The notes under the pieces are model-generated. The model did no database searches. It worked only from the letters and a program-made list of their open reading frames with translations, and had not been told where the DNA came from. The position numbers were made by a program, and so were the translations under genes. A stretch of 64,000 nt of DNA, taken from IMG/VR virus record IMGVR_UViG_3300044691_000116, positions 1-64,000 of that record, one strand, 5' to 3'. How positions within the stretch are numbered: the stretch's first letter is position 1; the number at the start of each line of letters is the position of its first letter. Shown here piece after piece: positions 1-48,997 of this stretch. This DNA is from a virus.

Positions 1-1
1 C

Positions 2-199
2 ACGCGCCAGGAAGCGGCGCTCATCTTCGCGAACTGCCGCCCGCACGTCGATCCCCTGTGGCACTGGACGAGCGAAGAGCACGAATCGAACGACTCGTGT
101 GCCTGGGATTGCCACTTCAGCAACGGCTGCCAGGTCAACGGCAGCAAGTCCTCCGAGGGCAGCGCCCGAGCCGTCCGCTTGATTCACATCACCGACTGA
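2..199 (+). CDS. DGR target protein 1, C-terminal part (5' end outside window); DUF1566/C-type-lectin-fold-like
   Basis: Frame from nt 2 reads TRQEAALIFANCRPHVDPLWHWTSEEHESNDSCAWDCHFSNGCQVNGSKSSEGSARAVRLIHITD*. It has the WTS...AW..F..G....ARAVR pattern of DGR CLec targets and contains VR1. Confidence 0.88.
   Translation, partial: TRQEAALIFANCRPHVDPLWHWTSEEHESNDSCAWDCHFSNGCQVNGSKSSEGSARAVRLIHITD
89..178 (+). repeat. DGR variable region VR1
   Basis: 90-nt ungapped match to TR 1264-1353 with 9 mismatches, all opposite TR adenines. Confidence 0.95.
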
Positions 200-237
200 A
201 TCCTTCAATCCTTCAGTCCACTCGAGGAGATGACCCA

Positions 238-696
238 ATGACCGAAATCACGCTGCAGGCCGTTCGCGCCAAGCAGACCGAGTTGGCGACCATGATCGCC
301 GCCCTGATGAACCAGACCGCGACGACGGTCTCCGTCGACGCGATCGACATCGAGCTGCGCGACGGCGAGCACTACGCCGGCGCCGTCCTGAACGATGACG
401 GCACGATCAAGCACCACCTGGTGCTGATGGCCGAGAAGCCGGACGAGATGCTGCCGTGGGCGCGCGCCATGGTCTGGGCCGATAGCGTTGGTGGCTTGCT
501 GCCCACGCGCCAGGAAGCGGCGCTCATCTTCGCGAACTGCCGCCCGCACGTCGATCCCCTGTGGCACTGGACGAGCGAAGAGCACGAATCGAACGACTCG
601 TGTGCCTGGTATTGCTACTTCATCAACGGCTACCAGGACCTCAACTTCAAGTCCTCCGAGGGCAGCGCCCGAGCCGTCCGCAGATTGACTTCGTAA
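238..696 (+). CDS. DGR target protein 2 (152 aa; DUF1566/CLec-like C-terminal domain, helical N-terminus)
   Basis: ATG at 238 after GAGGAG. Motifs LPTRQE, WHWTS and AWYCYFINGYQ...ARAVRR. Contains VR2. Confidence 0.9.
   Translation: MTEITLQAVRAKQTELATMIAALMNQTATTVSVDAIDIELRDGEHYAGAVLNDDGTIKHHLVLMAEKPDEMLPWARAMVWADSVGGLLPTRQEAALIFANCRPHVDPLWHWTSEEHESNDSCAWYCYFINGYQDLNFKSSEGSARAVRRLTS
592..686 (+). repeat. DGR variable region VR2
   Basis: 95-nt match to TR 1264-1358 with 8 mismatches, all opposite TR adenines. Confidence 0.95.
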
Positions 697-728
697 GTCC
701 TTCGATCCTTTGAATTGAGTCCCGCCAC

Positions 729-1091
729 ATGGCCATCCACGACCAACTGCCTATCTACCGCACCGGCGTGCGCCTGCTCGCCCTTGCGGTCAGAGTGCAG
801 GAGCAAATGCCGCGCAGCATCAAACGCATCTTGGGCGAGAAGATCACCCACCATTGCGTTGAGATGCTCGACCTGATGGCGTTCGCCAACGCGACCCAGA
901 AAGGCGTGCGCGCCAGGCACATCCAGGCGCTGCTGTCGCGGCAGCGCGCGGTGACCGTGCTTCTGCGGGTCAGCCACGATAGCCGATACCTCTCACCCAA
1001 GCTGTGGGCCGAGTCTGTCGAGTTGCTTGGCAGCATCGGCAGCCAAGCCGGCGGGTGGCTCAAGTCCGCAAATAGGGCGCCTGCAGCATGA
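729..1091 (+). CDS. avd: DGR accessory variability determinant (Avd, four-helix bundle)
   Basis: 120 aa basic helical protein with LPIY...MPR...LGEKI...IGSQAGGW pattern, lying between target and TR/RT. Confidence 0.88.
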   Translation: MAIHDQLPIYRTGVRLLALAVRVQEQMPRSIKRILGEKITHHCVEMLDLMAFANATQKGVRARHIQALLSRQRAVTVLLRVSHDSRYLSPKLWAESVELLGSIGSQAGGWLKSANRAPAA

Positions 1092-2449
1092 CGGTCAAGG
1101 CCCTCATGCCCGTGCGCAATGTGAATCTGGTTGCGCCCCTCGCCTACCCGGCGACGGACATGCACACCACAGATACCGTCGCCTCTGTGCGGGCCGCGTC
1201 TGGTGCAGCTATCGACCTGATCGGCGCAAGCCTTCGGGTCGACGGCCTTGAAAGCGCGACAACAACGACTCGTATGCCTGGAATTGCAACTTCAACAACG
1301 GCTACCAGGACAACAACAACAAGTCCTCCGAGGGCAGCGCCCGAGCCGTCCGCAGATTCCAACCTGTTTCCCCTGCTCGTCGAGGCGTACCTCGATTGCC
1401 GGCGCACGAAGCGCAACAGCGCCAGCGCGCTCGCATTCGAGGCCCACCTCGAAAGCAACCTGTGTGACCTGCACGACGATCTGGTCTCTGGCGCCTACCG
1501 GCCTGGGCGATCGACGTGCTTCGTCACGCTGCGCCCCAAGCCACGCGAGATCTGGGCGGCCGGCTTCCGCGATCGGGTGGTCCATCACCTGCTCCACAAC
1601 CGGATCTCGCCCACCTTCTACCGGTCGTTCACGGCTGACACCTGTGCCTGCATCCCGGGCCGCGGCACGCTGTACGCCGCTCGTCGCCTCGAGGCACAGG
1701 TGCGCAGCCTCACCGAGAACTGGTCGCGGCCGGCGTACTACCTGAAGTGCGACCTGTCGAATTTCTTCGTTGCGATCGACAAGTACGTGTTGCGCGAGCA
1801 GCTGCTGCCGCGCATCGAGGGCGCCTGGTGGCAGGACCTCTCCGAGACGGTGCTGTTCCACGACCCGCGCGGTGACGTCGAAGTGCGCTCGCCGGCGGCC
1901 GTCATGCGCCTGGTGCCACCGCACAAGAGCCTGTTCAATGCGCCGGCCGACACCGGCCTGCCGATCGGCAACTTGTCGTCGCAGTTCTTCGCAAACGTGC
2001 ACCTCGACGCGCTCGACCAGTTCGCCAAGCACCAGCTACGCGCGCCGCGGTACGTGCGCTACGTCGACGACTTCGTTTTCACGCACGAGTCGACCGAGGT
2101 TCTTAGCGGCTGGCTGCGCCAGGTCGACGCGTTCCTGCCATTGCGGCTCGGCGCTCACCTGAACCCACGCAAGACCGTGCTGCAGCCCATCGCCCGCGGC
2201 ATCGACTTCGTGGGCCACGTCATCCGTCCGTGGCACCGCACGCTGCGGGCGAACGCCCTGCCGAACGCCTTGCGCCGGCTCAGCGCAACGCCTGATGACA
2301 CGCTCTTCGAGACGCTGAACAGCTACTTCGGCATGTTCCGCCAGGCGCCGGCTAGCCATCACGTCCGCGCCCAGCTGGCCAACGCAGCCCGGAACCGCGG
2401 CTTCTGCGTCAACGGCTCGCTCACAAAAGTTTATCGAAAGACAGCATGA
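1088..2449 (+). CDS. DGR reverse transcriptase
   Basis: Motifs KPREIWAAGFRDRVVHH, YYLKCDLSNFF, GLPIGNLSSQFFAN (DGR-type SQ) and YVRYVDDF. ATG overlaps the avd stop (ATGA). True start uncertain. Confidence 0.95.
   Translation: MTVKALMPVRNVNLVAPLAYPATDMHTTDTVASVRAASGAAIDLIGASLRVDGLESATTTTRMPGIATSTTATRTTTTSPPRAAPEPSADSNLFPLLVEAYLDCRRTKRNSASALAFEAHLESNLCDLHDDLVSGAYRPGRSTCFVTLRPKPREIWAAGFRDRVVHHLLHNRISPTFYRSFTADTCACIPGRGTLYAARRLEAQVRSLTENWSRPAYYLKCDLSNFFVAIDKYVLREQLLPRIEGAWWQDLSETVLFHDPRGDVEVRSPAAVMRLVPPHKSLFNAPADTGLPIGNLSSQFFANVHLDALDQFAKHQLRAPRYVRYVDDFVFTHESTEVLSGWLRQVDAFLPLRLGAHLNPRKTVLQPIARGIDFVGHVIRPWHRTLRANALPNALRRLSATPDDTLFETLNSYFGMFRQAPASHHVRAQLANAARNRGFCVNGSLTKVYRKTA
1264..1358 (+). ncRNA. 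DGR template repeat (TR)
   Basis: AAC-rich invariant copy of VR1/VR2 (26 adenines in 1264-1353), located between avd and the RT core. Confidence 0.95.
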
Positions 2450-3648: not shown

Positions 3649-4056
3649 ATGAAGACCATCCTCGCGACCCTCGCCCTCATCGCTCCGCTGCTGGCGAGTG
3701 CTGCAACCGTCGAGCCGACGCCTTGCTACAACTACCCGGCCACGCAAGTCAACTGCGTTCCCCTCGTGGTCGATGGCATCACGTCGGCGAACATGGTTCG
3801 CTATTCCACGTCGGCCGGGTCATTCCTTGCGATCACGTTGGACAACGTGGTCTATACGACGCTGCCGAGCGCCTGGGTCACGACGTCGGTGGCGACCGGC
3901 CCTTATGACGCGAACCAAAACTGGGTCGGTCAAGCGTACTCCGGTGCGGCGGTGCTGTCGTTCAACCTGAACATGCACACGAAGCGCGGCATCTGCTCGG
4001 GCCGCGGGTGCCGGACGCCCTACAGCTACTCCGTGCTGGGCGGCTCGCTGCAGTAA
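3649..4056 (+). CDS. exported protein with signal peptide
   Basis: MKTILATLALIAPLLASA signal peptide; two Cys pairs; beta-rich. Confidence 0.7.
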   Translation: MKTILATLALIAPLLASAATVEPTPCYNYPATQVNCVPLVVDGITSANMVRYSTSAGSFLAITLDNVVYTTLPSAWVTTSVATGPYDANQNWVGQAYSGAAVLSFNLNMHTKRGICSGRGCRTPYSYSVLGGSLQ

Positions 4057-4104: not shown

Positions 4105-4971
4105 ATGACCGAAACCACTCAAGCCGCACGCCAGGTGCAAATCGTCAGCCGCTGGAATTCGTCCCGTGTGCTGTTCTCGTTCGATGTGCCGGCAACGGTC
4201 GCGAGCGGAATGGAGACGCGAGCAGCGCTGGAGTCCGCTGTGGCTGGCGGCGCCAACCTGCGCGGCGCCGACCTGAGCGACGCCGACCTGAGCGACGCCA
4301 ACCTGCGCGGCGCCGACCTGAGCGACGCCGACCTGAGCGACGCCAACCTGCGCGGCGCCGACCTGCGCGGCGCCAACCTGCGCGACGCCGACCTGAGCGG
4401 CGCCGACCTGCGCGGCGCCAACCTGAGCGACGCCAACCTGCGCGGCGCCGACCTGCGCGACGCCGACCTGCGCGACGCCAACCTGCGCGGCGCCGACCTG
4501 CGCGGCGCCAACCTGAGCGACGCCAACCTGCGCGGCGCCGACCTGCGCGACGCCGACCTGCGCGACGCCGACCTGCGCGGCGCCGACCTGCGCGGCGCCG
4601 ACCTGCGCGACGCCGACCTGCGCGGCGCCGACCTGCGCGACGCCAACCTGAGCCCAATCAAGGCCGACTACTTCGACGTGCTGCTGCGCGCGCCGCGCGA
4701 GATTCCTGCTCTACGCGCCGCCTTGGTTGCCGGCAAGGTGGACGGCTCCTGCTACGAGGGCGCGTGCGCGTGCCTTGTGGGCACGATCGCCAATGCTCGC
4801 GGTGCGCAGTACGACGCGCTCGGCTCCGGTCTGGCGCCGAATTCGAGCCGACCCATCGAGAGCTTTTTCATGTCAATCACGAGCGGCGACACGCCGGAAA
4901 CGAATCAGGTGTCAAAGCTGGCTGTCGAATGGCTCGACGAGTTCGCCGGCTTGTTGTCTGCCGCCGCCTGA
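4105..4971 (+). CDS. pentapeptide repeat protein
   Basis: 27 A(D/N)L(R/S)(G/D) units, plus a C-terminal [17 protein letters not shown] domain. Confidence 0.92.
4252..4656 (+). repeat. 15-bp coding tandem repeat, 27 units
   Basis: Unit GCC(A/G)ACCTG(A/C)GCG(A/G)C. Confidence 0.95.
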
Positions 4972-11646: not shown

Positions 11647-11940
11647 ATGCTGACCGCTGCGCAACTTGCTACCGAACTGAACGTCAGCGTCCGCCACGTT
11701 GAGCGCTGCGCCGCGGCCGGGATGCCGTCCATTCTCGTCGGCGCCCGAGCCAAGAGGTACGATCCAAAGACCTGCCTATCCTGGCTTGCAGAGCACAGCG
11801 GAGAACTGTCCACATGCCGATCAAACGCACCCCGCAAGGCGGTTTCTCGGTTCGTGTCTGCGTCCGCGGTCAACGAGCTCACCGCCGCCTCGCGCCGGGC
11901 ACTCCTGCGTCTGACGCAAAGAGAGTCGAATCAGAGCTGA
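11647..11940 (+). CDS. excisionase-like HTH protein
   Basis: MLTAAQLATELNVSVRHVER...GMP...RYD winged-HTH pattern, directly upstream of and overlapping int. Confidence 0.7.
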   Translation: MLTAAQLATELNVSVRHVERCAAAGMPSILVGARAKRYDPKTCLSWLAEHSGELSTCRSNAPRKAVSRFVSASAVNELTAASRRALLRLTQRESNQS

Positions 11941-12797
11941 GGGTTGCGCTAGAGCGCAAGGCGCCCGAGAAGCGCTCGGTGGCTATCCCCGGCGACCCAC
12001 CCATGTTCGACGTGCTCACGCTCTACACCGAGGAGGCGGAGCACCTGCGCAGCCCGAAGACGAACCAGAGCCATGCCGCCCGGATCGCCGCCCACGTCCG
12101 GGAGTACCGGGCCAGTGACGCTCGAGCTTGTGCAGCAAACTTCGTGAAAAAGGCCCGCGCCGGGAAGTTCGCCGTTGGCACGATCAACCGCAGTTTGGGC
12201 TGCATGCGCCGCGGGCTGTATCTCGCGTGGGAGAAGGGGCTGACGCGCGAGGACTACAGCACCCAGGTCAAGGCGCTCCCCGAGCACAATGCCCGCGAGA
12301 CGCATCTTTCCGTCGCCGAGGTGCGCACGCTGGCCGATGCTGCGAGCGAGAACGTTCGGGCAGCCATCTGGATCGCGCTTCTGACGGGGTGCCGGCGAGG
12401 CGAGGTCTGCCAGATCAAGGCCAGCGACATCGGCGCCGACTCGATCCTGATCCGGGCCGGTAACACGAAGACCCTGAAGACGCGCACGGCGCCCATCTTC
12501 CCGGCCCTTCGGCCATGGTTGGGCTACCTGCCCCTTGCTATCAACTTCGAAGGCGTGAAATCTGGCTTCCGGCGCGCGCGTGAGGCTGTCGGAATGCAGC
12601 ATGTCCAGTACCGTGACCTGCGTCGGTCTTGCGGGATGCTGCTACTGTCGCTCGACGTTCCGCTCGACGTGATCCGCGACGTGCTCGGCCACGCCAGCAT
12701 TAAGACCACGGAGACGCACTACGCGCACGCGATCGTCTCGCGTCAGCGCTCGGCGCTGGAAAAGCTAGGCGCCCTGACCGAAGGCAAGGCCGCGTAA
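11814..12797 (+). CDS. int: tyrosine integrase
   Basis: TGCRRGE, RDLRRS and LGHASIKTTETHY catalytic motifs. Confidence 0.93.
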   Translation: MPIKRTPQGGFSVRVCVRGQRAHRRLAPGTPASDAKRVESELRVALERKAPEKRSVAIPGDPPMFDVLTLYTEEAEHLRSPKTNQSHAARIAAHVREYRASDARACAANFVKKARAGKFAVGTINRSLGCMRRGLYLAWEKGLTREDYSTQVKALPEHNARETHLSVAEVRTLADAASENVRAAIWIALLTGCRRGEVCQIKASDIGADSILIRAGNTKTLKTRTAPIFPALRPWLGYLPLAINFEGVKSGFRRAREAVGMQHVQYRDLRRSCGMLLLSLDVPLDVIRDVLGHASIKTTETHYAHAIVSRQRSALEKLGALTEGKAA

Positions 12798-18962: not shown

Positions 18963-19583
18963 CTATTCCGAAAAGGCGTTGAGCGCCTGCTGGGTGTACT
19001 GCTTGCGCAGGGTCGCTTGCAGCATCGCGCGGCCATTGATCGCGCGGGTGATGGCATCTAAGGCCCCAGCATCGGCCAAGGCATTGAGCTTGTTTGTGTG
19101 CCAGAACCATGCGGCCGTCAGGCATGCGTCGGCGGGCAACGACACCAGCGATGGCGCGTTCAGGTAGTCGTGGGCGAGCCCAGTCGCGGCGTCGGAGTAA
19201 TGTTCTCGGCCCGTAACCTGCAGCAGGCCGCGGCCACGAAACGTGTATCCATCGCCGCTGGACTCGTCGCCGTTGCCGAGACGGTTGGCGTAGACGCGTG
19301 CGCCCAGCTTCGAAGGGTTCTTGGCGTACGGCGCCGCCTCCGATGCGCTCATGAAATGCGACGGGAAGACATCCCAGATGTGCGCTGGATCGCTGTAGAA
19401 GAGATTCTCTTCCGTGTGGATCAGGCGGTCGCTCTCGACCATGCACTGCCCGAGGAAGGCGGCGATACGCGCCGGCGTGTCGATGTCGAATCGAGCGCAT
19501 GCATCGTTGAGGGGTGCCGCGAACGTGCTGGCCTGCGTTGGAGCGATGCCTGCGGCGACGAGCTGCGATGCAGAGATATTCAT
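18963..19583 (-). CDS. endolysin, glycoside hydrolase family 19
   Basis: RIAAFLGQ...ES...EENL.Y, YANRLGNG, FRGRGLLQVTGR and ITRAING. Confidence 0.93.
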   Translation of the reverse strand: MNISASQLVAAGIAPTQASTFAAPLNDACARFDIDTPARIAAFLGQCMVESDRLIHTEENLFYSDPAHIWDVFPSHFMSASEAAPYAKNPSKLGARVYANRLGNGDESSGDGYTFRGRGLLQVTGREHYSDAATGLAHDYLNAPSLVSLPADACLTAAWFWHTNKLNALADAGALDAITRAINGRAMLQATLRKQYTQQALNAFSE

Positions 19584-36995: not shown

Positions 36996-38528
36996 TTAGG
37001 CCCCCTTGTTGAGGTGACGGGTGACGAAGTTGCTGCCGGTGCCCGTGTCCATCGCTGCGGCGGTCTTGGCCGTCGCAGCCTTGGCGGGATCGCCCTTGGC
37101 GAGCAGGTAGCCCGAGAGAACCGCGGCTTCTTGGCCGGCTTGGGCCTTGATGCCCAGCTGCTTGACGCCGTAGGAGGCGACTTCAGCTTCGTTCATCTCG
37201 GAGTGGTCGAAGGTGCCGATGTGGGCGGACAGCTGCTTGGCGAGCGTGTCGCGGCGAGCGATCTGGCCAACGAGTTCCTTGAAGGTCAGGGCGGCGTCCA
37301 TCGACATGTCGGGGTTCTTGTCGGAGTCAGCCGCTTTGGCTTCCTCTTTCTTGTCGTCCTTCTTGTCGTCGTCCTTCTTCTCGAAGTCGGCGTCTTCAGC
37401 CTTCTTCTCGTCGTCCTTGTCGTCCTTCTTTTCGTCGGACTTCTCGGCTTCGTCCATGATCATCTTGATCGCGGGCATCGCCTGCTTGAGGGTCGCGAGT
37501 GCAGCGTCCAGCGTCATGCCGGAGCCGCCCTCGTTTTCTTTGTCAGCCATGGGTGGCTCCTTGGGTAGTGAGGTGGATTGATCGATCGAGTCCAAGACCG
37601 CAACGTCTGGCCCCATGCGCCCGGAATGAACCAGCGCCAAGTGATTGCCGCGAATCGTTCGCTGGATAGCGTCGTAGGCCGCACCTTGGAAAACTCCCTT
37701 GGTGAAGTCATAGACACAGCGATAGCCGCACGACAATTCCCGCTTCCCGGCTTCGATCAGGCCCGCCATGGATTGGGAGAAAACTTTCAGATTCCCGTAG
37801 AGGGTTCCGTCTTCGAAGAACACGTCTTCGCCGATCACGCCCTGAATGCCCTTGCGCTCGGCGGGCATCAACCCGTCCTCTTCGCTGCCCAGCATCACGT
37901 GGTCATCGATCCACGGCAGGAGGCGGAAGCTGTCGATGCATTCCGGATCGGCGAGCTCTTCGGCCGGCCGGTAGACCCGGTACTGACGGTCAGGGTTTTC
38001 CGCGTCGCCGACCTGGCGGCCGAGGTAGGGGAAGACGCCGACCTTGGAGAGCGGGTTGCGCGAAATCTCCGGCCAGCCGTTCGTATCTACGGTTCGCGCT
38101 GACTCGTCCATCGAGACCGCGTCGGTAAGCGCAAGGTTGATCGCCGCAACGGCTTGGAAGGCACCTGTTATCTGGTCCGCAACGGCCGGATGCAAGGGAC
38201 TCGGCAAGTCGGACGTCGTTGCCCAGACATAGCCGTCGTGTTCTTCGTTGAGGGTGGGCGCGAAGGTATCGCCGACGCACAGGAACAGCACGAAGCCGCC
38301 GCGCTCTTCGAGGAGCGTGATGGCGCTGGGTGCATGACCGGTCTCTTCGACGGATTCGCGCACCGCTGCTTGCTCTCCGCTCTCGCCCTCCTCGATTCCG
38401 CCAGCCGGGAATCCCCATGTCGACGGGTTCGAGGCGGCATTGGCTGCGCGCTTGAGCAGCAGCACGCGGTCGCCAGTGATGTAGGCGATGCCGGCAGCCG
38501 TGGCAACAGGGGGGAGTTCTTGGGTCAT
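36996..38528 (-). CDS. prohead protease/scaffold (DUF2213-like) with N-terminal NUDIX domain
   Basis: Nudix box [22 protein letters not shown]; [22 protein letters not shown] and NHLALV..GR.G. Confidence 0.88.
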
Positions 38529-43269: not shown

Positions 43270-43821
43270 ATGAAACGCTACTTCTTGGCGGGAGCCGCTG
43301 CATTGCTGGCGAGCTCCGCAGCGCTGGCCGACGTGACTTTTGCGATCCCGCTCTCGGGGACGATGACGTACTCGGCCGACATCTGCGACCATCCGGACGG
43401 ATCAACGGATGGCTGCTCGATCACGACACCGTTCACGGGGCCGCTTGAGGTGGTCCTACCTTCGGCGGCTGACGGGTTCTACTTCGCGCCAGGGATCACG
43501 ATGTTTCTGGGCTCGCCTGCGTACAGCATCACGAGCTCGTCGGACTATCAGTTCGGTGTCACCGTCTTGGGCGGCAGGATCACCGACATCTATGCAGACG
43601 CTGCGGTGGGCAGCGGGTACATGGCTGTGAATATGGGCGGTCCGACCGGGTTGCACCTGGAGGACGGGGATGTACACGGGTACACCGTGATTGATGCGGC
43701 GCTGATCGTGCCAGAACCTAGCGCTGCGGGCTTGGTTCTCGCCGGGGTCGGCCTTTTGGCGACCCGCTCCCGGCGTCGAGCAGGTTACGGGAAGACTGTC
43801 GCCGGCACTGCCAGCGATTGA
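43270..43821 (+). CDS. PEP-CTERM sorting-signal surface protein (moron)
   Basis: Signal peptide; C-terminal VPEPSAAGLVLAGVGLLATRSRRR; opposite strand to neighbours, with TGGACA-16-TAGACT upstream. Confidence 0.85.
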   Translation: MKRYFLAGAAALLASSAALADVTFAIPLSGTMTYSADICDHPDGSTDGCSITTPFTGPLEVVLPSAADGFYFAPGITMFLGSPAYSITSSSDYQFGVTVLGGRITDIYADAAVGSGYMAVNMGGPTGLHLEDGDVHGYTVIDAALIVPEPSAAGLVLAGVGLLATRSRRRAGYGKTVAGTASD

Positions 43822-46800
43822 AGGATCGGCACGACCTGCTGGCCGAACGGCGTAAGTTCGGCCGGGTTTGAGGTCTGATAGCCGCCGCCGCCGGCATTGT
43901 AGGAGCCCGCAAGGCGAATCATCGCGTATGGGTTCCCGCCGTTATTGTTGCTCGGGTCATCTAGCGCCCATGGCAGCCAGCCCAGGAGGTTGGCTTCCGC
44001 AACAGCGATCAATTCGAGGGCATCCAGGTTGGTGAAATTGCCGCTTTGTTGGTTCTGATATGCGGGGCCGAACTCTCCGATACAGTAGGTCGGGCCACCT
44101 ATTGCGTTCGCGGCCGTGCTCATGGCCACAGCCGCGGCCGTGAAGCCTCCTGTCCGGTAGCCACCGTAGATGTGTGCGGAGAACATCGTGTTGACCTGAG
44201 TATCGGTTGCGAGGACGTTCTGCCCATGATGGGTCAGTGTCCAGAAGTTCCCGGCGCCGCCCAAATCCTGGCCGGAGCCCGGCGCATCGATCATGATCGT
44301 GCATTTGTAGCCGGCGGTACGGAGGGCCGCGACCATGGCGTTGTAGGCCTCCCTCCAGGTCACGTCGTCGAACGACGTTGCGACAGATACTGCCTGACCC
44401 GGGGTCACGGCATAGGTGGCGCCGATCGCGCCGGCCGTTCCGGTCAGTGGCGTGGCGCTCACAATCTGGAAAGGCGTAACGCCTGTGGCGCCAAGATACA
44501 TCCGAGTCCGAATCGGAGTCGCCGCTGATACCGCCGCCGTGAGCGTCAGAGTCGTTCCGGAGATCGTACCGTGAACAACACCCGTTATGCCGGCAGTTCC
44601 CCACTCGTTGACGATGTTCAGGATCATGTAGCGCTCGTACGCCGCCCAGCGCGGATACTGCTCGACCCATTGCTGCGTAGCTGCCGCCAGGACTGCGACG
44701 CTGGTGTTTCCTGACGTGGGGCAGTAGTACCCCATCGTGCTCGTCGACGCGACCGTCTGCGCCGCGCCGCTGATGGTGTAGGTTCCCTCTTTGCCTTGGA
44801 TGCCTGAGCCGTTCGTGTTCGTCAGCTGCGCGGTAATGATCGCGGAGCCAGTGACACCTGTTCCTGACAGGCCCGTACCATTGGGCTGCGAGGTGCCGTT
44901 CGATACTGCAATGACTCCACGGTCGGTGCCATCAGACGCATGCGCCATCGCGGTCACGGTAAGCGTGTTGCCGCTGACGCTGCCCGTGAAGTAGGCCTTC
45001 ACAGCCGCAATGACCGGAATCGGGACGCACTGGTGATTCGGCGACGTCGAAATCATGTCGTCGATCAGTGGTTTGTTCTTCGTCGTCCAGTCCTGCGTCA
45101 TGTCGGTGAACATGCGCTGGCAGTTGGCCTTGGTGTTGAATAGGCCGACCGTTCCGGTTACCGGGGTATTGGAATCCCAGTGCAGGCGGTTCGCCCCGCG
45201 CGGGCGCCACTTGTTGCCATTCGCATCGTAGAGCGTTCCGTGGGCCGTCCAGAAGCCGACGCCCGTGCTCGTGCCCGGCCGCGTCATGGTGGACGGAGCG
45301 GTATCGGTGAGAGAGTCCGCACACGCTGCCGTGCTGAGGCTTGCAACAATCTTGAGTGAGGTGCTGAAGAACGAGCCGTAGGCGGTCAGATTCCCAAGCG
45401 CCGTTGTGCCGGCATAAACACCAGGGGCCAGCACCGAGTCGATGTAGTGGGTGCCGATGTAGACCCGGATCTGCGAAACCGCCTGTACCGTGATGCCCGC
45501 GTTCTCGCCGAGACCGCCGATGTTCAAGCCGGCGCCGGGGCTGGCCGCGGTCTGAACCGCCGTCTGCGAGACCACCGTGTGGGTCGCCGTGAATTCAGTA
45601 CTGGCGTAGGTGCCGCTTGGGGTCGTGACGCGCACACTGAACCACTTGCCCACGTCGCCTGTGACCGGCGTGTAGGTTGAGCCCGTCGCGCCGCTGATCG
45701 CCACCGGGCCGGAAGTGCCAGCATTGGCATGCCACTGTTGCGATGTGATCGGGCCGGTATAGCCTGGTGTGACGTAGGTCAGGGCTTGGCCCTTGACCGG
45801 AATCCCGAGGATCACGGGCGTGAACGGCGTCGGGTTGATGTAGGCCGCCCCGATCAGTCGCGCCAGCTGAGTCATCGACAACACGATGGGCAGCACGATC
45901 GCGCCGAGAGTCTCGAGCGCCGTTGCACCCCAGCCGTCGGCCGCCGTCCAGGCCTCAACGTTGGTAGTCGTCGTGGGAGGCGTCCAATAGAACGTCCCGT
46001 TTGCCTGAACACCGACGCTGCCGCCCTTGGTGTCGTAGGCGACTTGATTCGCGGCCGCGAGATCAGCACTGGCGGTGAGGCGATTGGCCGTCGTCGCATA
46101 GGGCGTGGCCAGGGTGACGTAGGCCCAGCCGGCTTGCGGCAGGATGCCCGTGACCAACGCGGAGGTGTTGCTAGTCGCGCCACCGTTGACGGTCACGACG
46201 AGGCTGACGGCAGTTCCGTAGCCATTCGTTCCGCGGGCGACCGTGACGGTGATGGACGTATCCGACCAGGACGTTACGGCGCAAACAGTTCCGCCCAACG
46301 CGACCGAGCCCGTGCCCTGCGTCGCCCCGAAGTTGACGCCAGTGAGCGTCAGCGACCCGAGGTGCCGCGGCGTCTTCGTACTGACGCCGGTGATGGTGGG
46401 TGCAGTGGTCGAGCCCTTGATGATGAACGCCGCGGCGGACCAGAAAGTTGAGGCCGACAGCGTCCAGCCTGGCGTCCATGTTCCCGTCGTCGTCGTGGCG
46501 CGCGTGATGATGCGCAGTTGCTGCGCCGAGCCCACGTTGTCGTTGCCAATGAGCGGCGTATACCCGGACAGCGGCGTCGCCGTGGCAAAGGCCACGTTGC
46601 GCGTGACCATGAAGCCAACGACCAGGTCGTTCGTGAAGGTGTTCGGGCCGACGGCTACTTGCGGCGCCGTGCTGCCAGCGTTGAATGCCGTCGTGACCGC
46701 GGCGTCCAGCAGGTCGGCATGCTCGCCCGTCACCGCGAAGATGGCGGCGCTGACTTCGACCGAGCTACCCGCCTTGCCGAACGTGACGGTCGGCGTGGTG

Positions 46801-47060
46801 CCATTCGTGGCGACATTCGCGACCGCCTGCCAGACGCCCAGCCCGCGCGTGTCGTTGACATCCGCGATCTGCGTCCAGGTATTGCCCCGGTTATCAGAAA
46901 TAACGAGGTTGTGGGCGGAGGTATTGTTCGTCGCCGCGACCGCGTACATCAGGTCGCCGGTCGCGATGCCGCCGGCGCTGGAGAAGGTGACGGTTTTGTT
47001 GGTCGTGTTGTTGGAGGAATCGGTTCCCCCATCGACCGCGCTATAGATCGTGATCGTCAT
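43785..47060 (-). CDS. large multidomain protein: beta domains, IPT/Ig-like domains and GH5 glycoside hydrolase
   Basis: G.LYDANG....RG.N..HW, NIVNEWG, IMIDAPG.GQD, FSAHIY, IGEFG and GWL.WA; LTLTG.NFG.TQG.G.V..GG.....SWSDT.I IPT domain. Confidence 0.85.
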   Translation of the reverse strand: MTITIYSAVDGGTDSSNNTTNKTVTFSSAGGIATGDLMYAVAATNNTSAHNLVISDNRGNTWTQIADVNDTRGLGVWQAVANVATNGTTPTVTFGKAGSSVEVSAAIFAVTGEHADLLDAAVTTAFNAGSTAPQVAVGPNTFTNDLVVGFMVTRNVAFATATPLSGYTPLIGNDNVGSAQQLRIITRATTTTGTWTPGWTLSASTFWSAAAFIIKGSTTAPTITGVSTKTPRHLGSLTLTGVNFGATQGTGSVALGGTVCAVTSWSDTSITVTVARGTNGYGTAVSLVVTVNGGATSNTSALVTGILPQAGWAYVTLATPYATTANRLTASADLAAANQVAYDTKGGSVGVQANGTFYWTPPTTTTNVEAWTAADGWGATALETLGAIVLPIVLSMTQLARLIGAAYINPTPFTPVILGIPVKGQALTYVTPGYTGPITSQQWHANAGTSGPVAISGATGSTYTPVTGDVGKWFSVRVTTPSGTYASTEFTATHTVVSQTAVQTAASPGAGLNIGGLGENAGITVQAVSQIRVYIGTHYIDSVLAPGVYAGTTALGNLTAYGSFFSTSLKIVASLSTAACADSLTDTAPSTMTRPGTSTGVGFWTAHGTLYDANGNKWRPRGANRLHWDSNTPVTGTVGLFNTKANCQRMFTDMTQDWTTKNKPLIDDMISTSPNHQCVPIPVIAAVKAYFTGSVSGNTLTVTAMAHASDGTDRGVIAVSNGTSQPNGTGLSGTGVTGSAIITAQLTNTNGSGIQGKEGTYTISGAAQTVASTSTMGYYCPTSGNTSVAVLAAATQQWVEQYPRWAAYERYMILNIVNEWGTAGITGVVHGTISGTTLTLTAAVSAATPIRTRMYLGATGVTPFQIVSATPLTGTAGAIGATYAVTPGQAVSVATSFDDVTWREAYNAMVAALRTAGYKCTIMIDAPGSGQDLGGAGNFWTLTHHGQNVLATDTQVNTMFSAHIYGGYRTGGFTAAAVAMSTAANAIGGPTYCIGEFGPAYQNQQSGNFTNLDALELIAVAEANLLGWLPWALDDPSNNNGGNPYAMIRLAGSYNAGGGGYQTSNPAELTPFGQQVVPILQSLAVPATVFP

Positions 47061-48997
47061 GTGCCAATCCCCTGCGTCGCGCCGATGTCATTGAAGGTGA
47101 CGCTCGGCACGCCCGTCCCTGTCTGTGGTCGCGCGATGGCGTAGAAGTCGGTCGCTATCGCAACAGGCTCGGCCGCGACGACGGCGCCAAGGCACGGACT
47201 GCCCGCGGCCAACGTCAGGTCGAATGTCGACAGGCTGGTGAACAGCGGATTGCTATAAGCGGTACCCGCGTGCAGATCTTTCGATGGGGCAGTTAATACG
47301 ACGCCGCCAAAATCAAAGTACTTGTTGTAGTCGAGCGTGACGGCGGTATCGCCGGCGCCAAAGTTATTGAAGTCGAGAAACGAGTTATGCCCCGTCATCA
47401 GGCACAAAATGTTGTGATTGATATTGACCGTGCCGCTCGTGATCGCGCCGCCGTCATTGACCAACAGGTACGGATAGGCGCCCGTCGTTGCCGTCTGGAC
47501 GATCGTGTTGTGGGTGAAGTTGATCGCTCGCGACGCGACGTTGTCGCTGATCTTGAACGAGCCGCCGTTCTGGGGGCCACCGCAGCAGTTGATGAAGATG
47601 TTGTTGTAGATGTCGACCGATTGCACCGAACTCGCGCAGGTCAGACCGTTCTTCGCGGCGCTCTTGATCCAGTTGCCGTAGACCTTGTGGCCCGTGAACT
47701 TGTCACCCGAGCCCTGCGTGTCGTTGAACTGAATGCCTGAGCCACCCGTGATGTCCTCGACCCGATTCCACCGAATGATCCAGTTGTGCGAGCACGGGCC
47801 GTTGAAGCCGCCCGAGATGGACTGATTGCCCGAGCCGACATAGATCCCGTGGTTGGTCATGCTCGTCTGCAGGCAACCGACGTCGTGGACGTAGTTGAAT
47901 TGCAGAACGACGTTGTCGCCCTGTCCAGGAATGCCGCCCGCGAGCGCACCCGTCAGCGTCGGCCACGAGACTTCGCAGTTCGACACCCACCAGTTGTCGG
48001 CGCCTTGTTGCAGGTTGATCGGTGCGCCGTCGGTCGCGCTCGATGCAGCCGCGCTGAAGACCTTGAGTCCGCTCAGCTTGACGTACTGCCCCGACGTGAG
48101 GGCGCCGGCGTTTGCGTGGGCGCTGATCGGCCCCATAATGCCGCCGCGGCCGCTGCTCGGATCTTGGTAGTACGGCGTCTCGGGCGCGTTGCCGAGAATC
48201 GGGCCGGGATAGCGCGTGATTCGAATGTTGCCGTGCCCCGCGGCGCCGGTGGCAGGTGATCCGTTGTGGCGATTCTCTTGGAAGCGCGCCCACCGGTTGT
48301 CGAATCCCACCTGATCCACGTAGGGCGTCCCCGAGTTCGCGCGCACGACGATGCAGTCACCGGGGAGCAGTCCTGCATCGCCCTGCGCGGTCGTGGCGGC
48401 CCACAGCGACCCCGCGACGGCCGTGTTTGCGCCGCCGTAGTTCTGGAGATACTGGAACGGCTTGGTGATGTCGTCAGGTTTGCCGGTGGCATCGTTGCCA
48501 GCGACGTTGTCGACGTACCACGTGCGCCCCGGCTGCACGATGAACGCCGCGGTCAGGATGTTGGTGTCGACGCCGTTGACGGTGAGTTTTACGTCGAGTG
48601 CGCGGCCGGCAGTCATCAGGCCGCCCAGCGAGCCAATCTGAAACAGGATCGCCATCAACTGGTGCGTGACGAAAACGTTTGGCAGCGTCAGTGCGCGATA
48701 GTTGTCGACCTCATGCCATGCGTTGTCACCCAGCGGGTCACGAAAGAACACGCGCGCACCCGTCGCCTGTCCTAACTGGTCCGACCGCCCGAGGGCGTAG
48801 CCATAGGCCTCGAGCGTGAACCCCTTGTTGTTCTCGCCGCCCGTCAGCGAACCCGAGTCCGTGTCGAGAGCAAGCAGCCTCGGCGCCACCTGATAGCCGG
48901 TCGGCTTGTCGCCAGCTGGCCACGCGCTCCAAATGCGCCCATCGAAACTGGTGAGCCAGCTCGACCAGTCTTTGGCGACAATGTTCTTTGCGGCCAT
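47057..48997 (-). CDS. right-handed beta-helix (pectin-lyase-like) protein
   Basis: WYVD...GND.TG......PF, PGD.I..R and repeated N.VHD/HGIY/I.NN.F coils. Confidence 0.8.
   Translation of the reverse strand: MAAKNIVAKDWSSWLTSFDGRIWSAWPAGDKPTGYQVAPRLLALDTDSGSLTGGENNKGFTLEAYGYALGRSDQLGQATGARVFFRDPLGDNAWHEVDNYRALTLPNVFVTHQLMAILFQIGSLGGLMTAGRALDVKLTVNGVDTNILTAAFIVQPGRTWYVDNVAGNDATGKPDDITKPFQYLQNYGGANTAVAGSLWAATTAQGDAGLLPGDCIVVRANSGTPYVDQVGFDNRWARFQENRHNGSPATGAAGHGNIRITRYPGPILGNAPETPYYQDPSSGRGGIMGPISAHANAGALTSGQYVKLSGLKVFSAAASSATDGAPINLQQGADNWWVSNCEVSWPTLTGALAGGIPGQGDNVVLQFNYVHDVGCLQTSMTNHGIYVGSGNQSISGGFNGPCSHNWIIRWNRVEDITGGSGIQFNDTQGSGDKFTGHKVYGNWIKSAAKNGLTCASSVQSVDIYNNIFINCCGGPQNGGSFKISDNVASRAINFTHNTIVQTATTGAYPYLLVNDGGAITSGTVNINHNILCLMTGHNSFLDFNNFGAGDTAVTLDYNKYFDFGGVVLTAPSKDLHAGTAYSNPLFTSLSTFDLTLAAGSPCLGAVVAAEPVAIATDFYAIARPQTGTGVPSVTFNDIGATQGIGT

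What the first reader, a model, noticed from the sequence alone, without database searches (positions are those of the whole stretch)
1..2449. Phage DGR that diversifies two tandem small non-tail proteins from one template
Seen: one TR (1264-1358) matches two VRs. VR1 has 9 and VR2 has 8 substitutions, all at TR adenines and mostly different (AWDCHFSNGCQVNGSK vs AWYCYFINGYQDLNFK). Known: the Bordetella BPP-1 DGR diversifies the tail receptor protein Mtd. Here target 2 is only 152 aa with no signal peptide, and the cassette sits in the early operon about 20 kb from the tail genes on the opposite strand. I saw no VR at the ends of the tail fibre or tailspike genes. Inference: the targets are hypervariable intracellular binders, for example against host defence or regulatory proteins, possibly acting as a hetero-oligomer with combinatorial diversity.
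Basis: partly seen in the sequence, partly recalled or inferred. Interest (0 to 1): 0.9.

Follow-up and report, generated by a model that had tools for sequence, protein, structure and literature searches.

The report
Phage DGR diversifying three small lectin-fold proteins
A soil phage carries a standard mutagenic retroelement (DGR) that rewrites the tips of three small side-by-side lectin-like proteins encoded among its early genes, an arrangement already seen in cultured Burkholderia phages, though what these proteins bind is still unknown.

Summary
TR 1264-1353 matches VR1 (89-178, 9 mismatches) and VR2 (592-681, 8 mismatches), all at TR adenines. avd (729-1091) and an RT gene (to 2449) complete a canonical DGR.

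Two corrections:
- There is a third VR (13 mismatches, all at A) in a paralogous 135-aa gene "A" at 72755-73162 of the 73,233-bp record, outside the window.
- "Target 1" is a tandem duplicate of gene B (B') that spans the contig ends. The last 127 nt of the record equal window 144-270. Contigs and k-mer depths from the probable source sample fit four copies of the shared VR/TR segment and two copies of the B N-terminus. VR1 is therefore probably a real locus, not an artefact.

The targets are stand-alone DUF1566/C-type-lectin-fold proteins. The same A-B-avd-TR-RT cassette sits among early, recombination and integrase genes in phage Magia, vB_PL1, prophages of Burkholderiales and most of 73 IMG/VR loci. 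A and B are predicted to heterodimerise (ipSAE 0.81, best control 0.01).

Multi-target DGRs, short DUF1566 targets and non-structural phage targets are all in print. This is a new member of a known kind. An intracellular role is plausible but untested.

The parts
1..199 (+). 3' part (frame 2) of target gene B', a tandem duplicate of gene B. Its 5' end lies at record positions 73202-73233, and about 233 nt in between are not in the record. The stop codon is at 197-199. The deduced length of about 154 aa is my own count.
   Evidence: Positions 1-106 are identical to 504-609, and the record's last 127 nt equal 144-270. A Logan contig of 528 nt joins 149-503 to 1-173.
89..178 (+). VR1
   Evidence: 9 mismatches to the TR, all at TR adenines.
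238..696 (+). Target gene B (152 aa): N-terminal helix, linker, DUF1566/C-type-lectin-fold domain.
   Evidence: Pfam Lcl_C 5.2e-5, below the curated cut-off. 199 homologs of about 150-160 aa. AF2 pLDDT 85. Foldseek top hit is the Lcl C-terminal domain 8q4e.
592..681 (+). VR2 (identity to the TR runs on to 686)
   Evidence: 8 mismatches to the TR, all at TR adenines.
729..1091 (+). avd (accessory variability determinant, 120 aa)
   Evidence: Pfam bAvd PF22296, 1.2e-10, 42.2 bits against a cut-off of 40. PHROG 'Avd protein of DGR', 2.7e-22.
1264..1358 (+). Template repeat (TR). All three VRs share 1264-1353.
   Evidence: 26 A in the 90 nt.
1088..2449 (+). Reverse transcriptase ORF. The TR lies in its 5' extension and similarity to relatives' RTs starts near 1373. 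The true start is unresolved.
   Evidence: Pfam RVT_1, 8.5e-11. 57-78% identical to RTs next to avd in related loci. The peptide IGNLSSQ and YVDD are readable; their role as DGR RT hallmarks is recalled.

Best explanation
This is a canonical, recently active DGR of a temperate myophage of Burkholderiales that is related to Burkholderia phage Magia. The cassette is avd, TR and RT.

Mechanism: TR RNA is copied by the RT into cDNA with random bases opposite adenines. The cDNA replaces the 3' ends (VRs) of three tandem genes, A (135 aa), B' (about 154 aa) and B (152 aa). The record is a circle cut inside B'.

The targets: each is a stand-alone DUF1566/C-type-lectin-fold domain, and the B type carries an extra N-terminal helix and linker. 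A-type and B-type proteins are a conserved gene pair and are predicted to form a pseudo-symmetric heterodimer. The variable loops flank the interface, so two or three independently diversified faces could combine into one ligand-binding surface.

Likely site of action: the cassette is embedded in the early recombination/lysogeny operon, not in the late structural operon, and the proteins have no virion-attachment domain. I therefore think they more likely act as soluble binders in the infected or lysogenic cell than as tail receptor-binding proteins.

Shown: the sequence anatomy, the adenine-only pattern, the fold prediction and the conserved context. Inferred: the retrohoming mechanism (by analogy with BPP-1), the heterodimer and the site of action.

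Sub-confidences: DGR with three targets 0.9; VR1 is a real locus 0.85; A:B pairing 0.55; non-virion role 0.55. The overall figure of 0.5 is for the whole statement, including the inferred site of action.
For: DGR identity:
- 30 of 30 TR/VR mismatches fall at TR adenines.
- avd and RT match their families.
- B' and B are identical over the 106 nt before the VR, yet their VRs differ at 11 positions, all at TR adenine sites (read). This argues for DGR activity after the duplication.

VR1 as a real locus (Logan contigs of run X1):
- A 528-nt contig closes a 503-nt cycle: intergenic region, B N-terminus, VR1, A-type 3' end. Its depth is 46.8.
- The avd/TR contig (window 657-1349) has depth 26.
- The 34-mer shared by the TR and all VRs has depth 110, about 4 x 26.
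- The two short segments each expected to be shared by two loci have depths 55 and 57.

Fold: AF2 pLDDT 85. The best PDB matches are the Lcl C-terminal domain, the Bd2740 C-terminal domain and intimin.

Conserved architecture:
- Magia has three VRs plus a TR, and vB_PL1 has two.
- 42 of 49 analysed IMG/VR loci have 2 or more VRs, and 1140 of 1206 mismatches are at TR adenines.
- 42 of 56 loci with a full B-type gene have an A-type gene ending within 150 nt upstream.

Context:
- An exonuclease lies upstream and the integrase downstream.
- Magia and vB_PL1 have the same layout, as do the Pandoraea and Limnohabitans prophages.
- In 35 dereplicated loci, the three ORFs nearest on each side (95 downstream, 101 upstream) match ParB-like, integrase, methyltransferase, dNMP phosphatase, CII-like and exonuclease families. 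No head, tail or lysis family is among the 25 commonest on either side.

Pairing: ipSAE 0.81 against a best control of 0.01. That mark was reached by 58 of 80 solved complexes and 2 of 110 mismatched pairs. The runs agree in at least 66% of contacts and the partner pLDDT is at least 81.
Against: - No expression, proteomic or binding data exist for any member of this family.
- Known C-type-lectin-fold DGR targets in phages (Mtd) and the best structural matches (Lcl, Bd2740, intimin) are extracellular adhesins.
- The B-type N-terminal helix could be a virion anchor.
- Gene position may only reflect where a self-contained cassette could insert.
- The depth argument for B' rests on a few very short contigs and one reference contig, all from the sample that probably gave the assembly. 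At k=31 the 33-nt shared segment cannot by itself link VR1 to its 3' flank.
- The record starts 106 nt, not 127 nt, before VR1. I cannot explain this.
- The predicted interface uses motifs conserved in both paralogs, so homodimers are just as possible. The pass may reflect likeness to solved lectin-fold oligomers.
- Pfam Lcl_C hits are below the curated cut-off.
- No promoter or terminator was predicted around the cassette, so the operon assignment rests on strand and synteny only.
Confidence: 0.5

Rival explanations
1. Ordinary tropism switching. The small lectin-fold proteins, alone or as A:B dimers, are accessory adhesins carried on the virion, for example docked through the B-type N-terminal helix. 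The DGR varies host-receptor recognition as in BPP-1.
For: - All experimentally studied phage DGR targets are receptor-binding proteins. The Roux et al. preprint assumes that unannotated viral targets are structural (passages).
- The closest folds are adhesin tips.
- PHROG 4245, the only PHROG hit, is a 583-position profile with the lectin domain at its C-terminus.
- Lack of a signal peptide is compatible with virion assembly in the cytoplasm.
Against: - The targets have no attachment domain.
- No longer fused relatives were found (weak evidence).
- The cassette lies about 20 kb from the tail genes and on the other strand.
- In 35 related loci, no head or tail family is among the 25 commonest families of the flanking ORFs.
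- Magia, vB_PL1 and two prophages show the same early placement.
Confidence: 0.3
2. Prophage-expressed function for the lysogen. The diversified binders are made from the prophage and recognise incoming rival phages or other variable intracellular ligands, as a form of superinfection exclusion or defence, rather than helping the phage's own lytic growth.
For: - The cassette lies a few kb from the integrase at the prophage end.
- In Magia a terminator is annotated just before gp47, which would make the cassette its own transcription unit.
- DGRs have been proposed as immunity-like systems for cellular targets (PMC10053308, search listing only).
Against: - No effector domain is present.
- No promoter was predicted.
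- Nothing distinguishes this from the counter-defence reading with the data at hand.
Confidence: 0.12
3. VR1 is not a separate gene. It is a minor population variant of VR2 or a chimeric assembly path, and the phage has only two targets (A and B).
For: - Window 1-143 is a tail that enters an otherwise perfect 72,963-bp cycle with a 127-nt overlap.
- VRs are known to break assemblies (passage in PMC8008677).
- Wu et al. warn of assembly errors in tandem targets (passage).
Against: - The depths fit four copies of the shared segment (110 against 26), full stoichiometry of both the VR1-type and VR2-type junction segments (55 and 57), and about double depth of the B N-terminal region (46.8).
- VR1 carries an A-type 3' end followed by the intergenic region and a B start. 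An allele of VR2 would not.
- Locus L034 has three tandem targets in a relative.
Confidence: 0.15

Closest known systems
DGR of Burkholderia phage Magia (NC_070954; gp57, gp47, gp46, Avd gp45, RT gp44) and of vB_PL1 / vB_E192a
   Same: - Same cassette order: A-type target, B-type target, avd, TR, RT.
- About 71% nucleotide identity over avd/RT.
- B-type proteins are 41-43% identical.
- Several VRs per TR.
- Same place, between the recombination genes and the integrase.
- The Magia paper already notes targets in 'relatively short reading frames'.
   Different: - Here the B-type gene is duplicated in tandem (B', B).
- Magia instead has a third target 6 kb upstream, and its annotation does not call gp46 a target, although one search shows a VR in it.
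- The genome here is 73 kb against 45-57 kb, with different flanking genes.
Bordetella phage BPP-1 DGR (mtd-avd-TR-brt)
   Same: Same order of target, avd, TR and RT. Adenine-specific changes, a VR at the C-terminus of a C-type-lectin-fold protein, and a GC-rich shared 3' end of VR and TR. The BPP-1 features are recalled and from passages.
   Different: In BPP-1 there is one target. As recalled, Mtd is a larger trimeric protein at the tail-fibre tips, encoded beside the tail genes. Here there are three targets of 135-154 aa with no attachment domain, encoded in the early operon.
Category 'd' / CLec2 DGR targets (DUF1566 type, e.g. Legionella LdtA) of Wu et al. 2018
   Same: DUF1566-like VR domain. 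[quoted passage not shown]
   Different: LdtA is a surface lipoprotein. The proteins here have no signal peptide or lipobox (read) and are phage-encoded.
Quimbyvirus DGR with a second target in a defence-related island (Benler et al. 2021)
   Same: A phage DGR target away from the structural module, on the other strand, next to methyltransferases and nucleases. The authors interpret it as non-structural (passages). Methyltransferases and ParB-like nucleases also flank relatives of the present cassette.
   Different: Quimbyvirus is a gut Bacteroidetes phage that also has a structural target. Here no target lies in the structural module, and the targets are a conserved paralog pair.

Membership tests
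Diversity-generating retroelement (DGR) | TR/VR pair whose differences fall at TR adenines | tested here: met
   9 of 9, 8 of 8 and 13 of 13 mismatches at TR adenines for VR1, VR2 and VR3. The TR has 26 A in 90 nt.
Diversity-generating retroelement (DGR) | Reverse transcriptase next to the TR | tested here: met
   RVT_1, 8.5e-11, above the cut-off. 57-78% identical to RTs that follow avd in related loci. IGNLSSQ and YVDD are readable; their status as DGR RT hallmarks is recalled, not tested.
Diversity-generating retroelement (DGR) | Accessory gene avd | tested here: met
   PF22296 bAvd, 42.2 bits against a cut-off of 40. PHROG 3206 'Avd protein of DGR', 2.7e-22.
Diversity-generating retroelement (DGR) | VR at the C-terminus of a ligand-binding (C-type lectin) fold | tested here: met
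   The VRs end 18-21 nt before the stop codons. The AF2 model and Foldseek hits are lectin-fold domains.
Diversity-generating retroelement (DGR) | IMH/IMH* and target-recognition hairpin downstream of the VR | tested here: inconclusive
   A shared GC-rich 33-nt 3' segment is present in the TR and all VRs, with divergence after it. No significant hairpin follows VR1 or VR2 (z-scores -0.67 and +0.80).
Diversity-generating retroelement (DGR) | Ongoing mutagenic retrohoming (adenine-site polymorphism in reads) | not testable with these tools
   Only contigs, not raw reads, were available for the source run. Indirect support: B' and B are identical in 106 nt of flank but differ at 11 TR-adenine sites.
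Lcl_C / DUF1566 (PF07603) | Pfam match above the gathering score | tested here: not met
   23.9 and 19.1 bits against a cut-off of 34.9. Many homologs carry a precomputed PF07603 hit. Two A-type homologs are named DUF1566 by NCBI.
Lcl_C / DUF1566 (PF07603) | Fold like the solved Lcl C-terminal domain | tested here: met
   8q4e_A is the top Foldseek hit: E 8e-4, TM 0.49/0.56, 24% identity over 114 columns.
Mtd-type tail receptor-binding protein | N-terminal domains that attach the lectin domain to the tail, and a gene in the tail module | tested here: not met
   The proteins are 135-154 aa with only a helix and linker before the lectin domain. The genes are about 20 kb from the tail genes on the other strand. 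No longer relatives were found (weak evidence).

The most novel reading that the evidence does not exclude
The A-type and B-type proteins form an antibody-like heterodimer: two independently hypermutated lectin-fold chains, with B' as an alternative second chain, make one composite binding site. It is produced early inside the cell to bind variable host defence proteins or proteins of rival phages. That would be a phage-encoded, DGR-driven, combinatorial intracellular binder.
Probability: 0.2. Interest if true: 0.85.

Novelty: new member of a known kind. Interest (0 to 1): 0.45.

Why it matters
The role of short, DUF1566-only DGR targets is an open question. Wu et al. list them without a function, and large surveys assume that unannotated viral targets are structural.

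This lineage gives a clean case to test that assumption:
- The cassette is conserved in cultured Burkholderia phages (Magia, vB_PL1, vB_E192a) and in prophages of many Burkholderiales.
- It always sits among early, recombination and lysogeny genes.
- It carries a conserved pair of paralogous targets that are predicted to bind each other.

If the pair proves to be a soluble heterodimer acting inside the cell, phage DGRs would have a second mode of use besides tropism switching. It would also be a natural two-chain scaffold for binder evolution. If the proteins are found on virions, the finding is an ordinary tropism DGR with an unusual gene position.

The case also shows how DGR targets break assemblies. 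The record called linear is a circle cut inside a duplicated target.

Tried and rejected
- Hairpins downstream of the VRs, as in BPP-1 target recognition: no structure better than shuffles.
- Promoter and terminator scans around the cassette: nothing beyond chance.
- Fused or longer relatives of gene B that could name a partner: none at E <= 1e-5 among 949 candidates (weak evidence).
- Local tblastn of the window phage's structural proteins and of Magia/vB_PL1 flank proteins against the 73 IMG/VR loci: few hits and no structural ones. Sensitivity is low because the flanks are diverse. I replaced this with the PHROG census.
- BFVD fold search: only generic lectin-fold/DUF1566 proteins of uncultured phages and eukaryotic viruses, with no functional lead.
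- The iScience 2026 paper on vB_PL1/vB_E192a (PMC12860723, passages): no mention of the retroelement and no virion proteomics.
- Literature search for DGR variable-protein heterodimers: one unrelated paper. Within the held library I found no such report.
- Run X2 (small share of words) laid on window 1-480: only diverged pieces of a relative, not used.
- I considered a disulfide or metal site from the conserved Cys/His of the B family. The A family lacks the first Cys and often has Gln in place of the second, so I dropped the idea.
- Count caveat: locus L039 was counted with 3 VRs because one gene was listed twice. It has 2.
- Supplementary tables of Wu et al. and Roux et al., which may list this lineage, could not be seen.
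Full report
**1. The observation**

The window is the first 64,000 bases of a 73,233-bp IMG/VR virus record.
- The repeat finder reports one repeat family with copies at 1-178, 504-681 (94%) and 1176-1353 (65%).
- A base-by-base comparison over TR 1264-1353 (90 nt, 26 adenines) gives 9 mismatches for VR1 (89-178) and 8 for VR2 (592-681). Every mismatch is at a TR adenine.
- The flanking genes are an Avd protein (729-1091; PF22296 above its cut-off; PHROG 'Avd protein of DGR') and a reverse transcriptase (ORF 1088-2449, RVT_1).

**2.

A BLAST of the TR against the whole record finds a fourth copy at 73053-73141.
- This is VR3. It lies at the 3' end of a 135-aa gene 'A' (72755-73162) and has 13 mismatches, again all at TR adenines.
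- A and B are paralogs, and both give sub-threshold Lcl_C/DUF1566 hits.

The record's last 127 nt (73107-73233) are identical to window 144-270, and window 1-106 is identical to 504-609.
- Positions 144 to 73106 thus form a closed cycle in which gene A is followed by the intergenic region and gene B.
- Window 1-143 is a tail that enters this cycle. It has B-type sequence upstream of the VR, its own VR1, and an A-type 3' end.

**3. Is VR1 real?**

I laid the Logan contigs of run X1 on window 1-480. X1 is a soil metagenome and is probably the source of this DNA, so it is not independent of the assembly.

| Contig or segment | Depth | Expected copies per genome |
|---|---|---|
| 528-nt contig joining 149-503 to 1-173 (a 503-nt cycle: intergenic region, B N-terminus, VR1, A-type 3' end) | 46.8 | mostly 2 |
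| Contig covering window 657-1349 (B 3' end, avd, TR) | 26 | 1 |
| 34-mer shared by the TR and all VRs | 110 | 4 |
| 31-mer shared by VR1 and VR3 | 55 | 2 |
| 35-mer that fits VR2 plus the TR | 57 | 2 |

- The 503-nt cycle length equals the spacing of the two copies found.
- The depth ratios (about 4, 2, 2 and 1.8 times 26) fit a genome with TR, VR1, VR2 and VR3 at one copy each and a duplicated B N-terminal region. They do not fit VR1 as an allele of VR2.
- The simplest origin is unequal crossing-over in the 33-nt segment shared by all VRs. That would give A, B' and B in tandem, with the record cut inside B'.
- Caveats: the depths come from very short contigs and a single sample; k=31 cannot bridge the shared segment; and I cannot explain why the record starts 106 nt rather than 127 nt before VR1. 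I put the three-locus model at about 0.85.
- B' and B are identical in the 106 nt before the VR but differ at 11 VR positions, all at TR adenine sites (read). This argues that the DGR has been active since the duplication.

**4. The genome**

- PHROG searches place portal, protease, major head, sheath, tape measure, baseplate and tail-fibre genes on the minus strand between about 41.7 and 22.8 kb.
- A GH19 lysin candidate lies at 18963-19583 (minus strand) and an integrase at 11814-12797 (plus strand).
- Upstream of gene A on the plus strand lie a PHROG-5715 exonuclease and three proteins of unknown function.
- The cassette therefore sits in a plus-strand block that runs from the recombination genes across the record junction towards the integrase. 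It converges on the end of the late operon.
- No promoter or terminator was predicted near the cassette, so 'early operon' rests on strand, gene content and synteny.

**5. Relatives**

Cultured phages:
- The avd/RT region is about 71% identical to Burkholderia phages vB_PL1 and Magia.
- In Magia the cassette lies between exonuclease, RecT, an AAA ATPase and a regulator on one side and HNH, excisionase and integrase on the other. gp47 and gp57 are annotated as possible DGR targets.
- The repeat finder shows three VRs in Magia (gp57, gp47, gp46) plus the TR, and two in vB_PL1.
- The Magia genome announcement mentions targets in 'relatively short reading frames' (passages).

Protein families:
- The B-type protein has 199 homologs with E <= 0.001 among 241 candidates, nearly all 150-160 aa.
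- The A-type protein has 451 homologs among 559 candidates.

IMG/VR loci (73 loci with a B-type relative):
- 49 had avd and RT in the expected spacing and were analysed. Of these, 42 have two or more VRs, and 1140 of 1206 TR/VR mismatches are at TR adenines (one locus was double-counted, see Tried and rejected).
- 42 of 56 loci with a full-length B-type gene have an A-type gene ending within 150 nt upstream.

Species genomes: 21 loci were found, and all those named to genus or order are Burkholderiales.

Context in relatives:
- In a Pandoraea prophage and a Limnohabitans prophage the neighbours are Sipho_Gp157, a DNA methylase, a VapE-like protein, a ParB/FtsK-gamma protein and the integrase at the prophage edge.
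- I ran a PHROG census of the three ORFs nearest to the cassette on each side in 35 dereplicated loci.
- Downstream (95 ORFs): ParB-like proteins in 15, integrases in 8, methyltransferases, HNH.
- Upstream (101 ORFs): dNMP phosphatases, CII-like activators, methyltransferases, exonucleases.
- No head, tail or lysis family is among the 25 commonest on either side.

**6. The proteins**

- The B alignment shows a conserved N-terminal helix, a variable linker and a lectin-like domain. Its hypervariable columns coincide with TR adenine codons.
- Q133 and K138 are nearly invariant although their codons contain adenines, which indicates selection.
- AF2 gives pLDDT 85.
- Foldseek ranks the Legionella Lcl C-terminal domain first (E 8e-4), followed by the Bdellovibrio Bd2740 C-terminal domain, intimin and animal C-type lectin domains.
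- Neither family shows a signal peptide or lipobox in the alignments. This does not exclude a virion role.
- No longer fused forms were found (weak evidence).

**7. Do A and B bind each other?**

Complex prediction with both alignments supports binding but does not show it.
- The score was 0.81 (runs 0.82, 0.81, 0.81) against a best control of 0.01.
- That mark was reached by 58 of 80 solved complexes and 2 of 110 mismatched pairs. These counts hold only roughly, because my own alignments were used.
- The runs agree in at least 66% of their contacts, and the partner pLDDT is at least 81.
- The interface is pseudo-symmetric: B 45-51, 92-102 and 130-134 against A 27-33, 73-82 and 111-115. It includes the invariant Gly and the conserved Gln inside the VR, so the variable residues would flank the dimer contact.
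- The contact residues are conserved in both paralogs, so homodimers are not excluded. The pass may also reflect likeness to solved lectin-fold oligomers.

**8. Interpretation**

Firmly established: an intact and, by the B/B' comparison (section 3), probably recently active DGR with three tandem stand-alone lectin-fold targets, belonging to a lineage of temperate Burkholderiales phages.

Site of action is inferred, not shown.
- For a non-virion role (my estimate 0.55): the conserved early placement, the lack of any attachment domain, and neighbours such as methyltransferases and ParB-like nucleases. These recall the defence-related island around the second Quimbyvirus target (passages of PMC8008677).
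- For a virion role (0.3): every tested phage DGR target and the best structural matches are adhesins, and the B-type helix could be an anchor.

**9. Novelty**

The following are already in print:
- The Magia cassette is annotated.
- A non-structural phage target has been proposed.

I found no report of paired DGR targets forming a heterodimer in the held library.

I therefore class the element as a new member of a known kind. It carries two modest additions: a tandemly duplicated target that breaks the assembly, and a testable heterodimer hypothesis for a conserved target pair.

Noticed in passing
window 1-270 and record 73107-73233: The record is classed 'linear' by IMG/VR, but its last 127 nt equal window 144-270. 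It is a circle, or a circularly permuted genome, cut inside a duplicated DGR target. About 233 nt (a copy of window 271-503) are missing from the record.
   Followed up: yes
window 4105-4971 (+): A 288-aa pentapeptide-repeat protein (Pfam 5.6e-53) lies in the same plus-strand block. Its repeat region gives 74-82% nucleotide matches in Ralstonia, Bordetella and Escherichia phages. Its function in phages is unknown.
   Followed up: partly
window 3649-4056 (+): A 135-aa ORF whose N-terminus (MKTILATLALIAPLLASAATV...) reads like a signal peptide. It has no Pfam or PHROG hit and may be a secreted or periplasmic moron product downstream of the RT.
   Followed up: no
window 36996-38528 (-): The head maturation protease (PHROG 3778) carries an N-terminal stretch (residues about 10-122) that matches MutT/NUDIX hydrolase PHROGs. 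This is an unusual fusion.
   Followed up: no
window 43785-48997 (-): Two large ORFs (1091 and 646 aa) next to the packaging/head region have no PHROG hit at 1e-5.
   Followed up: no
GenBank OK094664.1 and OP650936.1 (hits H5/H6, H18/H19): 'Shewanella phage vB_Sb_QDWS' and 'Hujiaoplasma phage zrk29-1' have the same length (47,902 bp) and gave identical scores in two searches. They carry this Burkholderiales-type DGR cassette. They are probably one phage deposited under two hosts, and the host assignments look doubtful.
   Followed up: no
loci L013, L015, L016, L021, L023, L025, L034, L037, L038, L042, L043, L045, L059, L064 (ORF directly after the RT); L089:12159-14282: In many relatives a 620-790-aa ORF follows the RT directly. 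In L089 it is a ParB_N + HTH_ParB + FtsK-gamma protein, and 15 of the 95 downstream ORFs match ParB-like PHROGs. It is a recurrent neighbour of the cassette but is absent from the window phage.
   Followed up: partly
Magia locus L006:7680-8144 (gp46): gp46 is annotated as a hypothetical protein, but it contains a VR (L006 8035-8124) matching the TR. It is the B-type target, so Magia has three targets, not the two named in its paper.
   Followed up: yes
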